From Escherichia coli (GTDB taxonomy: Bacteria; Pseudomonadota; Gammaproteobacteria; Enterobacterales; Enterobacteriaceae), in the NCBI RefSeq assembly GCF_041886205.1, contig NZ_CP169029.1: DNA of 64,000 bases, one strand, 5' to 3'. The position numbers were made by a program. Shown in pieces: positions 23,062-26,000 of the stretch; positions within the stretch are counted from its first letter, which is position 1, and each line of letters opens with the position of its first letter.

Positions 23062-26000
23062 TAATTGTGTGGACTGGCATCCGTTGGGTGCTGGTCCGTA
23101 TTCTTTAGCACGGCTGACGGCGCATAACCAAATTTATCCGGTGCGCCGTAAAACCCCGTCCTTCAGGGCGGGGATATAAGGCGCGGTTTTCCACCTGACC
23201 AGGTGTTTGCTGTTGTTCAATGTATTGGCGGATGACGGATATTGGCGCACCTCCGCAGCTACTGGCAAAATAGCCAGGACTCCACAAAACGCCTTTGTAG
23301 TAATACCTGACTGCAATATCTGGTCGATCTCGTCGCAGTAACCTACCCGATACGCCTTTGAGGCTGTTTACCAGACTGGATATCGCCAGTTTGGGAGGAT
23401 AGTTAATTAACAAATGGACGTGATCTGGTTCGCCATCCATTTAAACCAGTTCAGCTTCAAAATCAGCACATACATTTGAAAAGTAAGTGCGTAGTTTTTC
23501 TGTCGCGTCATAGTCAAAAATCTGACGTCGGTATCTGGTGACAAAGACCAGGTGAACATGCATCAGGAAAACACAATGCTTCCCCGTCGGATATCGGTTT
23601 CTTTATTCACAGACCAAAGTATCATTTGGCCTGTGAAACGATTACAGGCATTTAAATTCCAGTTAAGACCCGGTGGTCAACAGGAGCGTGAAATGAGGCG
23701 CTTCGCAGGCGCATGTCGTTTCGTTTTCAATCGTGCTCTGGCGCTTCAGAATGAGAATCATGAGGCCGGTAATAAATACATCCCTTACGGGAAAATGGCT
23801 TCCTGGCTGGTTGAGTGGAAAAACGCCACTGAAACGCAATGGCTTAAAGATTCGCCCTCACAGCCATTGCAACAGTCACTGAAAGACCTTGAGCGGGCTT
23901 ACAAAAACTTCTTCCAGAATCGGGCTGCTTTTCCCCGATTCAAAAAGCGGGGACAGAATGATGCATTCCGCTACCCGCAGGGCGTTAAGCTCGATCAGGA
24001 AAACAGCCGTATTTTTCTGCCGAAACTGGGCTGGATGCGCTACCGGAATAGCCGTCAGGTCACGGGTGTTGTGAAAAATGTCACGGTCAGCCAGTCCTGC
24101 GGTAAGTGGTACATCAGTATTCAGACAGAAAGTGAAGTATCAACTCCGGTTCACCCTTCAGCATCAATGGTCGGGCTGGATGCTGGCGTGGCTAAACTTG
24201 CCACGCTGTCAGATGGCACAGTCTTTGAGCCTGTAAACAGTTTTCAGAAAAACCAGAAGACGCTGGCGAGACTTCAGCGACAGTTAAGCCGCAAGGTCAA
24301 ATTCAGCAACAACTGGCAGAAGCAGAAACGCAAAATACAGCGACTGCATTCCTGTATCGCAAATATCCGCAGGGACTACCTTCACAAAGTCACAACGACC
24401 GTCAGCAAAAACCACGCAATGATAGCCATTGAGGATTTGAAGGTCAGCAACATGTCAAAGTCAGCAGCGGGTACGGTCAGCCAGCCGGGGCGCAATGTCC
24501 GGGCAAAATCAGGTTTAAACCGTTCGATACTGGATCAGGGCTGGTATGAAATGCGCCGCCAGCTTGCGTACAAGCAGCTCTGGCGTGGCGGTCAGGTGCT
24601 TGCTGTTCCGCCAGCGTACATAAGCCAGCGTTGCGCGTGCTGTGGTCATACAGCGAAAGAAAATCGCCTGTCACAAAGTAAATTCAGATGCCAGGTATGT
24701 GGATATACAGCGAACGCCGATGTAAACGGCGCTCGTAACATTTTAGCGGCGGGGCACGCCGTTCTTGCCTGTGGAGGGATGGTGCAGTCAGGCCGCCCGT
24801 TGAAGCAGGAACCCACCGAAATGATTCAGGCGACAGCCTGAACGTAGCAGGGATCCTCGTCATTCAGGGCGTGGAGGATGTCAACAATGGAGCCTGCGTC
24901 CGTGGCGTAAAGATGCACAGCCGCGCTGGATGGGGGCATTTCGTCCACGCCCACAAGATGGCTATTCGCCAGTGGTACGCGACTATGACACCGGCCTACC
25001 GACACAAGGGGTGAAGGTGGAAGAGAAAAAACAGAAGTTCTGACGATAATGCCCGCTGATGAACACCCGGCGGGCATTATTCAGGCTGCTTAAACCAGTG
25101 AACCGCCAGTCAGGAAGGAAAAGATAAGGAATATCAGCAAAATGCTGCACACGATGCCGATACCAAAAAGCAAAGTATGGAAAGCCAGCGTCCCGCCGCC
25201 AAAAACCAGCGCGCCGCGAATGCCCCAGCGATTTTCCTTACGCATACCGCCAATAAATGCGCAAAGTAGCGCAGCAATGGCCAGTGCGATACCGCTTTGA
25301 TTGAGGATTTTATCGACATCTACGTCCTCTTTTTTCTCCACGGTGGTAATTTTTTCGCCTTTTATTCCGGCGAGAAGACCTCTTTTAATTTCAGCCGTTT
25401 TGTCCGCCACGATGCTTTCAAACGTTGGCGGTGGTGCGGAGAAAGGGCCGAATGAAAAGTGGATAATCCCCATCATTAAAGCGATGGCACCGAACAGCAT
25501 GCCCAATGAACTGATTTTATTTTGAGCTATGATACCCATCTGACCTCCTTGTAGCGGATGGCGAAAGCATATCAGGAAACGGGCGGACGAAATTCTTAAA
25601 AAAAACCGCTAAAGGTAGAGCGTTAGTGAAATTGCAAAGGAGCAACAATGAAAATTTCCCGCCTTGGAGAAGCGCCCGATTACCGCTTCTCGCTGGCTAA
25701 TGAGCGTACTTTTCTGGCGTGGATCCGTACCGCACTAGGATTTCTGGCGGCGGGGGTTGGGCTTGATCAACTTGCGCCAGATTTCGCCACGCCCGTCATT
25801 CGTGAACTGCTGGCGTTGTTGTTGTGTCTGTTTTCCGGCGGGTTAGCGATGTATGGCTACCTGCGCTGGTTACGCAATGAAAAAGCGATGCGTCTGAAAG
25901 AGGACCTGCCCTACACCAACAGCTTATTAATCATCAGCTTAATATTGATGATCGTGGCGGTGATCGTTATGGGACTGGTGTTGTATGCCGGATAGCCGTA

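What the first reader, a model, noticed from the sequence alone, without database searches (positions are those of the whole stretch)
23105..23563. IS200-type TnpA is interrupted by an in-frame stop while TnpB stays open
The HuH transposase reads MHVHLVFVTRYRRQIFDYDATEKLRTYFSNVCADFEAELV, then TAA (plus 23441-23443), then in the same frame MDGEPDHVHLLINYPPK...GGAPISVIRQYIEQQ. The element is therefore probably non-autonomous for transposition. An inactivated TnpA with a retained TnpB is the pattern expected for a domesticated or decaying element.
Basis: seen in the sequence. Interest (0 to 1): 0.4.

Follow-up and report, generated by a model that had tools for sequence, protein, structure and literature searches.

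The report
Dead-transposase IS609 copy in E. coli

Summary
An in-frame TAA at 23441-23443 (minus strand) cuts a Y1/HuH transposase seven residues before the HuH motif.

The stop is real. The exact 61-mer occurs in 718 complete E. coli records, and intact relatives have GAA (Glu) at that codon.

- "MHVHL" is not the start. The true start is upstream (ATG 23625; the second start codon at 23610 is GTG here).
- A 1-bp deletion near 23579 shifts the frame.
- The natural TAG stop (23195-23197) is CAG, so the ORF runs through the left end into a yidL remnant.

The element is IS609 (IS200/IS605 family), 23138-24884, inserted after TTTAT in yidL. Both ends match those of a copy with intact tnpA. RefSeq already marks this tnpA as a pseudogene.

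Across 16 full-length copies at 7 loci, tnpB is intact in all (pN/pS about 0.3). tnpA carries at least five independent disabling lesions, and these are shuffled among loci.

Best reading: a non-autonomous selfish element that can be mobilised in trans. tnpA is decaying. tnpB is under purifying selection, and there is no sign of host domestication.

Side findings: the DNA next to the right end was deleted up to a TTAT motif, and this lineage's TnpB carries T330I at a near-invariant residue. Novelty is low.

The parts
23062..23132 (-). 3' remnant of yidL (AraC-type regulator), cut by the insertion
   Evidence: PGAP annotates a 'hypothetical protein, missing N-terminus' at the same place in near-identical genomes. 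Window 23100-23137 matches intact yidL in strain M25631H (H70).
23133..23137 (+). TTTAT target site / inferred TnpB TAM (core TTAT), immediately 5' of the left end
   Evidence: The motif is present in two empty sites: yidL ...CCAAATTTAT|TTTTAAAGG and ydcL-ydcO ...GCGCTTTTTAT|CATCGG in strain 6EVA. All 7 occupied loci have (T/C)TTAT before the left end, and no target duplication is seen.
23138..23197 (+). Left end (LE) of IS609. The subterminal hairpin is at 23154-23173 (CCCCGTCC-TTCA-GGGCGGGG). The AAAA at 23150-23153, 5' of the hairpin, is the probable guide tetranucleotide for TTAT.
   Evidence: The LE is conserved across copies at 7 loci. Its sequence (23138-23194) is identical to that of the copy with intact tnpA (L011); the only difference in this interval is 23197, inside the tnpA stop codon at 23195-23197, which overlaps the LE. 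The guide assignment is by analogy with IS608 (AAAG/TTAC), from memory, and is an inference.
23198..23625 (-). tnpA pseudogene (Y1/HuH transposase, IS609). Natural start is ATG 23625-23623. The second start at 23610-23608 is GTG here.
   Evidence: Pfam PF01797 E=1.3e-40 and NF033573 E=1.6e-41. PGAP: 'IS200/IS605 family transposase; frameshifted; internal stop; missing C-terminus'. Alignment to intact copies.
23578..23579 (-). 1-bp deletion (AAGGC to AAGC) that frameshifts tnpA at codon 16. From the true start only MILWSVNKETDIRRGSIVFS* can be made.
   Evidence: The exact 61-mer carrying this deletion plus the GTG is found in 183 records.
23441..23443 (-). TAA nonsense codon. It is E62* in the 143-aa numbering and E57* in the 138-aa numbering, 7 residues before the HuH histidines.
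   Evidence: Intact copies and relatives have GAA/Glu. In the alignment to IS608 TnpA 2a6m, HuH and Tyr127 both lie downstream of the stop. The exact 61-mer is in 718 records.
23195..23197 (-). Position of the natural stop codon, which is CAG (Gln) here. The frame therefore runs through the LE and the target site to 23105.
   Evidence: TAG in the intact yeaR-locus copy and in the VG1046/ET650 copies; CAG in 12 of 15 aligned copies. The 138-aa relatives end ...QQQTPG/S.
23633..24841 (+). tnpB / insQ, an RNA-guided endonuclease. 402 codons, GTG start, open. RuvC residues D183, E267, D363 and zinc-finger residues C334/C337/C353/C356 are present. Carries T330I (C to T at 24621).
   Evidence: NF040570 E=2.8e-113; PF12323, PF01385 and PF07282. 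ISDra2 TnpB structures 8bf8/8h1j E=2.6e-53. Residue conservation in 119 diverse homologues. The exact protein is seen on 14 contigs.
24700..24884 (+). Inferred omega/reRNA scaffold overlapping the 3' end of tnpB, plus the right end (RE). RE hairpin at 24855-24874. The terminus ...GGATGTCAA carries the TCAA cleavage motif at 24881-24884.
   Evidence: The RE boundary comes from alignment of 6 copies. There are weak, sub-threshold Rfam matches to TnpB-associated RNAs: RAGATH-18 at 24768-24811 (E=0.02) and HgcC at 24774-24897 (E=0.27). The start of the scaffold is not determined.
24885..24900 (+). Predicted guide segment of the omega RNA, i.e. the DNA flanking the RE (CAATGGAGCCTGCGTC...). It would direct cleavage of the donor joint TTTAT|CAATGGAG... 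formed if the element is excised.
   Evidence: Inference from the established TnpB mechanism (PMC8612924; bioRxiv 10.1101/2023.03.14.532601). Not tested here.
24885..25044 (+). 3' remnant of yidJ (sulfatase-like), joined directly to the RE. The 5' part of yidL, all of yidK and the 5' part of yidJ are missing.
   Evidence: PGAP: 'sulfatase-like hydrolase/transferase, missing N-terminus'. BLAST to the intact locus. In 355 genomes with intact yidJ the junction sequence is preceded by ...CGCAGTTAT.

Best explanation
Window 23138-24884 is a full-length chromosomal copy of IS609. IS609 belongs to the IS200/IS605 family and has divergent tnpA and tnpB genes. This copy sits after a TTTAT target inside yidL of E. 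coli.

No HuH/Tyr transposase can be made, so the copy is non-autonomous. (Shown.)

Its left and right ends match those of a copy with intact tnpA. It should therefore still be excised and reinserted by the peel-and-paste single-strand mechanism when TnpA comes from another IS609 copy. Candidates are the uninterrupted tnpA at yjfZ-ytfB in a near-identical genome, the intact 143-aa TnpA seen on at least 1000 contigs, and plasmid-borne relatives. (Inferred.)

tnpB/insQ with its right-end-derived guide RNA is most likely kept by element-level selection. After a TnpA-driven excision it would cut the TTTAT-flanked donor joint and restore the copy by homologous recombination. (Inferred from published TnpB work; not tested here.)

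The TAA is a segregating allele that has spread among IS609 copies at different loci by recombination or gene conversion.
For: - Identity and anatomy: Pfam and NCBIfam matches for both genes. PGAP names a sister copy 'IS609 family transposase'. The ends are defined by alignment of copies at 7 loci. Two empty sites show insertion 3' of TTTAT with no duplication.
- Lesions. The stop lies upstream of HuH and the catalytic Tyr.
- Reality of the allele: 718 records carry the exact TAA 61-mer.
- Ends: the LE (23138-23194) is identical to that of the tnpA-intact yeaR-locus copy. The one difference in 23138-23197 falls in the tnpA stop codon (23197), and the RE carries the same variant as that copy.
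- Transposase sources in trans: strain 6EVA, whose yidL copy differs from the window at one base, has a second copy with an uninterrupted tnpA ORF. The intact 143-aa TnpA is on at least 1000 contigs. Elements 94% identical, with tnpA listed in the plasmid gene table (which holds only genes that carry a protein accession) and tnpB, are on plasmids.
- tnpB under selection: 16 of 16 full-length copies are open. There are 33 synonymous, 37 nonsynonymous, 0 nonsense and 0 indel changes, and pN/pS is 0.28. tnpA has 6 synonymous, 13 nonsynonymous and 3 nonsense changes plus 2 indel events. If disabling events were spread evenly per base, the chance that all 5 fall in tnpA is about 0.26^5, or 0.001 (my arithmetic).
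- Catalytic D183/E267/D363 and the four zinc-finger Cys residues are present.
- Lesion shuffling: the same yidL locus carries fs+TAA, fs+TAA+TGA, TGA only, or a 5-bp deletion in different strains. The fs+TAA combination also occurs at the ydcO locus.
- Published framework: most tnpB genes lack a neighbouring tnpA and are thought to be mobilised in trans, and TnpB cuts the donor joint to retain the element (bioRxiv 10.1101/2023.03.14.532601; PMC8612924).
Against: - No activity was measured for TnpA, TnpB or the guide RNA of IS609.
- The candidate TnpA sources in near-identical genomes lack the natural stop and carry a C-terminal extension of about 48 aa, with unknown effect.
- This lineage's TnpB has T330I at a position that is Thr/Ser in 110 of 119 diverse homologues. 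This particular tnpB may be impaired even though it is open.
- The RE hairpin variant here has two mismatches compared with the alternative variant (and the sequence itself).
- The guide-RNA evidence is weak. The Rfam hits are below the gathering score and the fold z-score is only -1.5.
- The pN/pS signal partly reflects divergence that built up while the ancestors were autonomous.
- The sample is 16 copies picked from BLAST hits and is not phylogenetically controlled.
Confidence: 0.8

Rival explanations
1. Host domestication. tnpB/insQ has been co-opted by E. coli for a host function such as defence or RNA-guided regulation, and tnpA loss is part of that exaptation.
For: tnpB is open in 16 of 16 copies with pN/pS about 0.3 while tnpA decays. 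Selection on tnpB therefore continues without a cis-encoded transposase. Domesticated TnpB relatives (TldR) are documented (PMC10705468, listed).
Against: - The RuvC triad and zinc finger are intact, whereas known domesticated TldRs are nuclease-dead.
- Both transposon ends and the target motif are retained.
- The element is multi-copy and at variable loci. This locus is occupied in only about 304 of 5426 genomes, and the ydcO site is empty in a near-identical genome.
- There is no conserved partner gene.
- Intact tnpA copies circulate in the same species.
Confidence: 0.07
2. Whole-element neutral decay. The copy is simply dying, and tnpB is open only because it has not yet been hit.
For: - tnpA has several stacked lesions.
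- This lineage's TnpB carries T330I at a near-invariant residue.
- A clearly degraded fragment lacking most of tnpB exists at another locus (L012).
- In the related VG1046-type copies the LE region 5' of the hairpin is mutated.
Against: There are no disabling mutations in 1209 bp of tnpB across 16 copies, against at least 5 independent ones in 429 bp of tnpA. Synonymous changes are in excess in tnpB, which runs at about one third of the neutral nonsynonymous:synonymous ratio.
Confidence: 0.1
3. The stop is an artefact or is bypassed: a sequencing error, programmed readthrough, or a functional N-terminally truncated TnpA starting at MDGEP.
For: An ATG directly follows the TAA (TAAATG), and the 111-aa ORF contains HuH and the catalytic Tyr.
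Against: - The exact allele is in 718 complete genomes.
- It is coupled to an upstream frameshift, so readthrough alone would not restore TnpA.
- Most copies have plain GAA at this codon.
- The MDGEP ORF covers only Pfam model positions 46-121 and lacks the first strand and helix of the fold.
- Reference proteins all start about 60 residues upstream.
Confidence: 0.02

Closest known systems
IS609 of E. coli, e.g. the K-12 copy between ydcL and ydcO (tnpA pseudogene plus insQ/ydcM)
   Same: It is the same element: 97.9% identity over 1752 bp, the same ends, the same TTTAT target, an intact 402-aa InsQ, and a tnpA annotated as a pseudogene.
   Different: The locus differs (yidL, not ydcL-ydcO). 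The lesions differ too: K-12 has a single L96* TGA and no frameshift, while the window has a frameshift plus E62* TAA. The window copy also has a deletion next to its right end and the T330I change in TnpB.
IS608 of Helicobacter pylori and ISDra2 of Deinococcus radiodurans (reference IS200/IS605 elements with solved TnpA and TnpB structures)
   Same: - Y1 HuH TnpA fold with HuH and the catalytic Tyr aligned (2a6m E=2e-19).
- TnpB homologous to ISDra2 TnpB (8bf8 E=2.6e-53).
- Subterminal hairpins, a right end finishing in TCAA as in IS608, and insertion 3' of a short motif without duplication.
   Different: - Here the genes are divergent with start codons 7 bp apart, whereas in IS608 they are co-directional (from memory).
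- The target is TTAT/TTTAT, not TTAC (IS608) or TTGAT (ISDra2) (from memory).
- tnpA here is dead.
Non-autonomous tnpB-only IS200/IS605 elements (IS1341-type; the roughly 50 G. stearothermophilus elements of Meers et al.)
   Same: There is no functional tnpA, the LE and RE are conserved, tnpB is intact, and mobilisation in trans is presumed.
   Different: Here the tnpA sequence is still present as a recent pseudogene rather than absent, so the transition from autonomous to non-autonomous can be seen directly.
TldR, domesticated nuclease-dead TnpB-like repressors
   Same: A TnpB-family protein that persists without a working transposase.
   Different: The RuvC residues are intact, the transposon ends are retained, and there is no fixed partner locus. 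The window's tnpB is not a member.

Membership tests
IS200/IS605 family (IS609) | Encodes a Y1 HuH single-strand transposase (TnpA) | tested here: met
   PF01797 E=1.3e-40 over the full model and NF033573 E=1.6e-41 on the read-through translation. Present only as a pseudogene.
IS200/IS605 family (IS609) | Encodes TnpB (HTH, OrfB_IS605/RuvC and zinc-ribbon domains) | tested here: met
   PF12323, PF01385 and PF07282; NF040570 E=2.8e-113. Homology to ISDra2 TnpB.
IS200/IS605 family (IS609) | Subterminal imperfect hairpins at both ends and no terminal inverted repeats | tested here: met
   LE hairpin at 23154-23173 and RE hairpin at 24855-24874, with related sequences (CCCCGTCCTTCAGGGCGGGG and CCTCGTCATTCAGGGCGTGG). 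Conserved in all copies.
IS200/IS605 family (IS609) | Insertion 3' of a specific tetra- or pentanucleotide with no target-site duplication | tested here: met
   Empty and occupied sites were compared at yidL and ydcL-ydcO. (T/C)TTAT precedes the LE at 7 loci.
IS200/IS605 family (IS609) | At least 95% DNA identity to the named IS609 reference | tested here: inconclusive
   No ISfinder sequence was available. The element is 97.9% identical to the K-12 insQ element and 97.7% to a copy whose tnpA PGAP names 'IS609 family'.
IS200/IS605 family (IS609) | Transposition by TnpA-catalysed single-strand excision and integration | not testable with these tools
   Only indirect evidence: polymorphic presence at 7 or more loci, and precise empty sites.
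Autonomous IS element | Encodes its own functional transposase | tested here: not met
   Frameshift, E62* and loss of the natural stop.
TnpB RNA-guided nuclease (active type) | RuvC D-E-D triad and CxxC...CxxC zinc finger | tested here: met
   D183, E267, D363 and C334/C337/C353/C356, each aligned with columns at least 93% conserved in 119 homologues. The near-invariant T330 is Ile here.
TnpB RNA-guided nuclease (active type) | Cognate omega/reRNA encoded at the 3' end of tnpB and the RE, with its guide taken from the flanking DNA | tested here: inconclusive
   Only sub-threshold Rfam matches (RAGATH-18 28.1 bits against a gathering score of 44.9; HgcC 18.7 against 50). Fold z-score is -1.5.
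Domesticated TnpB (TldR-like) | Inactivated RuvC site | tested here: not met
   The catalytic residues are intact.
Domesticated TnpB (TldR-like) | Loss of the transposon ends and a fixed host context | tested here: not met
   LE and RE are intact. The locus is occupied in about 5.6% of genomes, and the element is at 7 or more variable loci.

The most novel reading that the evidence does not exclude
Two more novel readings remain open.

1. The IS609 copy at yidL records a rearrangement not usually attributed to IS200/IS605 elements: TnpA-catalysed deletions adjacent to the right end. In this reaction the RE 3' end would be joined directly to DNA following a downstream TTAT target, and the intervening host genes (yidL'-yidK-yidJ', or through yidI) would be lost as a circle. 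TnpA would have to act in trans on a tnpA-dead element.

2. The chromosomal insQ genes of E. coli may be kept by selection that does not depend on transposition at all.
Probability: 0.15. Interest if true: 0.5.

Novelty: already known. Interest (0 to 1): 0.15.

Why it matters
The finding itself matters little. It is a correctly spotted pseudogene in a known insertion sequence, and RefSeq already flags it.

Its value is as a clean natural example of how an autonomous IS200/IS605 element becomes a tnpB-only, trans-dependent one:
- The same species holds intact, singly hit and multiply hit tnpA alleles next to a uniformly intact tnpB.
- This fits the published view that TnpB is kept because it protects the element from loss.

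It also gives a predicted TAM (TTTAT) and guide for a native E. coli TnpB. The TTAT-bounded deletions suggest that IS609 activity has removed host genes (yidJKL, yidI) in some lineages.

Tried and rejected
- Rfam scan of 22500-25600 at E<=1: only two sub-threshold hits. No curated family can be claimed for the guide RNA.
- RNA fold of 24700-24900: z=-1.5, not distinguishable from shuffles.
- Promoter and terminator scan: counts are at the shuffled expectation, so it is uninformative.
- Self-BLAST of the element against the window: no second copy in these 64 kb, so same-window comparison was impossible.
- Literature searches for IS609, insQ and TnpB: no study of native IS609 biology in the library. 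IS609 TnpB was merely one of nine purified orthologues in PMC12781874.
- I first read the VG1046 left end as an inversion of the hairpin segment. Direct comparison shows three substitutions instead, so the inversion idea was rejected.
- I looked for the presumed ancestor, a simple IS insertion in yidL with the RE joined to the rest of yidL. It is present in 0 of 5426 genomes.
- I first noted that the window's RE junction follows TTAC, not TTAT, in strain M25631H. This was resolved: 355 genomes carry a yidJ allele with TTAT at that point and the window's own flank sequence.
- I searched for other copies in the source genome. The exact genome is not in the complete-genome set: the T330I 61-mer is found in only 2 records, at positions that do not correspond to the yidL locus. 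Strain 6EVA, whose element differs at one base, was used as a proxy. Its ydcO site is empty and its ytfB site is occupied. Its third copy was not located.
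Full report
**1. The observation**

Translating the minus strand from 23611 to 23102 gives CE*RNRYPTGKHCVFL-MHVHLVFVTRYRRQIFDYDATEKLRTYFSNVCADFEAELV-*-MDGEPDHVHLLINYPPK...GGAPISVIRQYIEQQQTPGQVENRALYPRPEGRGFTAHRINLVMRRQPC*.
- With the stop read as X, the sequence matches Pfam Y1_Tnp over the whole model (positions 1-121 of 121, E=1.3e-40) and NCBIfam transpos_IS200 (E=1.6e-41).
- The ORF from MDGEP covers only model positions 46-121.
- The divergent ORF at 23633-24841 is a complete TnpB (NF040570 E=2.8e-113; PF12323, PF01385, PF07282).

**2. What the locus is**

The window is E. coli chromosome: glvCB, then 6-phospho-alpha-glucosidase, then the element, then yidI-yidH-yidG-yidF-emrD.
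- In near-identical RefSeq genomes PGAP already annotates 'tnpA: IS200/IS605 family transposase; frameshifted; internal stop; incomplete' next to 'RNA-guided endonuclease InsQ/TnpB family protein'.
- PGAP names a sister copy 'IS609 family transposase'.
- I aligned copies from seven chromosomal loci: yidL, ydcL-ydcO (the K-12 insQ locus), yjfZ-ytfB, yfeD-gltX, ygjK, yajI and yeaQ-yeaR.
- The alignment fixes the ends. On the plus strand the element starts after TTTAT (23133-23137) with CCGGTGCGCC... It ends ...GGAGGATGTCAA at 24884.
- Two empty sites show that TTTAT belongs to the target and that nothing is duplicated. These are intact yidL...CCAAATTTAT|TTTTAAAGG, and the unoccupied ydcL-ydcO spacer of strain 6EVA...GCGCTTTTTAT|CATCGG.
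- One locus has CTTAT, so the core motif is TTAT.
- The subterminal hairpins (LE 23154-23173, RE 24855-24874) and the TCAA terminus are those of an IS200/IS605 element.

**3. The tnpA lesions**

Reference proteins are the 143-aa E. coli TnpA WP_000604942.1 at the yeaR locus and the 138-aa proteins of Salmonella, Proteus, Photorhabdus, Klebsiella and Yersinia (81-86% identical over the aligned region). All read M(ILWS-V/M)-N/K-KETDIRRGRHCVFLMHVHL...AELVEMDGEPDHVHLL...RQYIEQQQTPG-stop. Against these, the window copy shows:
- (a) GTG in place of the second ATG (23610-23608).
- (b) A 1-bp deletion (AAGGC to AAGC, about 23579). It shifts the frame at codon 16, so the true start yields only MILWSVNKETDIRRGSIVFS*.
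- (c) GAA to TAA at codon 62.
- (d) CAG in place of the natural TAG stop (23195-23197). The frame therefore continues through the LE hairpin and the target into the yidL remnant.

In the alignment with IS608 TnpA (2a6m), the stop falls seven residues before the HuH histidines and well before the catalytic Tyr. No product of this gene can be a transposase.

**4. The stop is an allele, not an error**
- The exact 61-mer around the TAA is in 718 of 4312 matching records.
- The 61-mer with the frameshift plus GTG is in 183 records.
- Among 15 aligned copies the TAA occurs in six: four other yidL-locus copies and one ydcO-locus copy.
- Other copies carry different lesions: L96* (TGA; K-12 and four others), Y76*, or a 5-bp deletion.
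- The natural stop is TAG in three copies and CAG in twelve.
- The same yidL locus, with identical junctions, carries different lesion combinations in different strains. One strain (N3) has both TAA and TGA.
- The lesions have therefore been reshuffled among copies by recombination or gene conversion.

**5. tnpB**
- All 16 full-length copies examined have an open 402-codon tnpB.
- Segregating changes in 15 copies are 33 synonymous, 37 nonsynonymous, 0 nonsense and 0 indel. The neutral expectation is about 1:3.3 synonymous to nonsynonymous. Mean pairwise pN/pS in 11 copies is 0.28.
- tnpA shows 6 synonymous, 13 nonsynonymous and 3 nonsense changes plus two indel events, with pN/pS 0.53.
- If disabling events were uniform per base, all five falling in the 429-bp tnpA rather than the 1209-bp tnpB has probability about 0.001 (my arithmetic).
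- The RuvC residues D183, E267 and D363 and the four zinc-finger cysteines are present, in columns at least 93% conserved among 119 diverse homologues.

tnpB is being maintained, not decaying.

One caveat is specific to this window. C to T at 24621 gives T330I in the 'TSQ' motif before the first zinc-finger Cys.
- That position is Thr in 103 and Ser in 7 of 119 homologues.
- The DNA allele is in only 2 of 5115 complete-genome records.
- The exact protein is nevertheless on 14 public contigs, and its T330 parent on 117. It is a real, young variant of uncertain effect.

**6. How it most likely works**

The ends match those of the tnpA-intact copy: the LE (23138-23194) is identical and the RE carries the same variant. 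The one difference between 23138 and 23197 is in the tnpA stop codon. Transposase is available in the species:
- Strain 6EVA, whose yidL copy differs from the window at one base, has a second copy at ytfB with an uninterrupted tnpA ORF. That ORF lacks only the natural stop.
- The intact 143-aa protein is on at least 1000 contigs.
- Relatives 94% identical, with both genes annotated, sit on plasmids.

The best-supported picture is a non-autonomous element that TnpA can mobilise in trans. Its TnpB and guide RNA would cut the TTTAT-flanked donor joint after excision and restore the element by recombination. This is the mechanism published for other IS605-family elements (PMC8612924; bioRxiv 10.1101/2023.03.14.532601). 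That paper also reports that most tnpB genes lack a nearby tnpA and suggests that autonomous elements may be prone to degradation.

The step 'TnpA is dead' is shown. 'Mobilisable in trans' and 'TnpB protects the copy' are inferences. The guide RNA itself is supported only by weak Rfam matches to TnpB-associated RNA families.

**7. Rivals**
- Domestication is unlikely: the nuclease site is intact, the ends are intact, and the element is multi-copy and polymorphic (this locus is occupied in about 304 of 5426 genomes).
- Whole-element neutral decay is contradicted by the contrast between tnpB and tnpA. It remains possible for this particular lineage because of T330I.
- Sequencing error, readthrough and a functional truncated protein are excluded by the allele's frequency, the upstream frameshift and the missing N-terminal third of the fold.

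**8. Side observation**

The element is not a simple insertion.
- Its RE is fused to the 3' end of yidJ, and about 3.7 kb (5' yidL, yidK, 5' yidJ; size from my own estimate of gene lengths) is missing.
- A commoner variant (289 genomes) has the same left junction, but its RE is fused inside yidI. The window type occurs in 15 genomes, and no genome has the simple insertion.
- Both right junctions lie immediately 3' of a TTAT in the uninterrupted sequence: TTTAT|TTTGAGC at window 25516-25520|25521, and CGCAGTTAT|CAATGGAGCC in 355 genomes with intact yidJ.
- This points to TnpA-type target chemistry. Either second insertions were followed by recombination between copies, or the RE was transferred directly to a downstream target.

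**9. Verdict**

The gene is more damaged than noted, and the element is a known, already annotated IS609 copy. The 'TnpA dead, TnpB intact' pattern is the established norm for this family. Interest is low and the novelty class is 'already known'.

Noticed in passing
window 24884/24885 (RE|yidJ junction) and 25516-25521; L007 6885; L008: The host DNA next to the right end has been deleted. In the window type (15 genomes) the RE is fused to the 3' part of yidJ. In a commoner type (289 genomes) the same left junction is kept but the RE is fused inside yidI. No genome has the simple yidL insertion. Both deletion endpoints fall exactly 3' of a TTAT/TTTAT target motif in uninterrupted alleles. This suggests either TnpA-mediated adjacent deletion or two insertions followed by recombination.
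   Followed up: partly
window 24621 (tnpB codon 330): C to T gives T330I in the near-invariant 'TSQ' motif just before the first zinc-finger cysteine of TnpB (Thr or Ser in 110 of 119 diverse homologues). The variant is rare: 2 of 5115 complete-genome records carry the 61-mer. The exact protein is on 14 contigs, so it is real. It may impair this lineage's nuclease although the ORF is open.
   Followed up: partly
L007 5149-5154 and L013 (VG1046/ET650 copies), equivalent to window 23148-23153: In the commoner yidL-locus variant, three substitutions change GTAAAA to TTATAT just 5' of the LE hairpin. This makes a perfect 16-bp palindrome with the other side. It removes the AAAA that probably guides recognition of the TTAT target, so that left end may be crippled.
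   Followed up: partly
IS609 copies L001-L016 and L019, compared with window 23138-24884: tnpA lesions (frameshift, E62*, Y76*, L96*, a 5-bp deletion, TAG/CAG at the natural stop) occur in different combinations at one and the same locus. The same combination also occurs at different loci. This indicates frequent gene conversion or recombination among IS609 copies.
   Followed up: partly
window 23623-23649: The tnpA ATG (23625, minus strand) and the tnpB GTG (23633, plus strand) are only 7 bp apart, so each promoter must lie inside the other gene. A conserved 8-bp-stem hairpin (GCCTGTGAAACGATTACAGGC, 23629-23649) includes the tnpB start codon and could control its translation.
   Followed up: no
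L012 (strain S1-IND-01-B, yedF-ybcM region): A degraded IS609 fragment, equivalent to window 23255-23915 only. It lacks the left end and most of tnpB, yet PGAP calls a 179-aa 'tnpA' CDS there. This shows that tnpB is not retained at every locus.
   Followed up: no
window 21742-23064: The 6-phospho-alpha-glucosidase gene upstream is an intact 440-codon ORF here. From memory, its K-12 counterpart glvG is a pseudogene. Strain A34 has it frameshifted.
   Followed up: no
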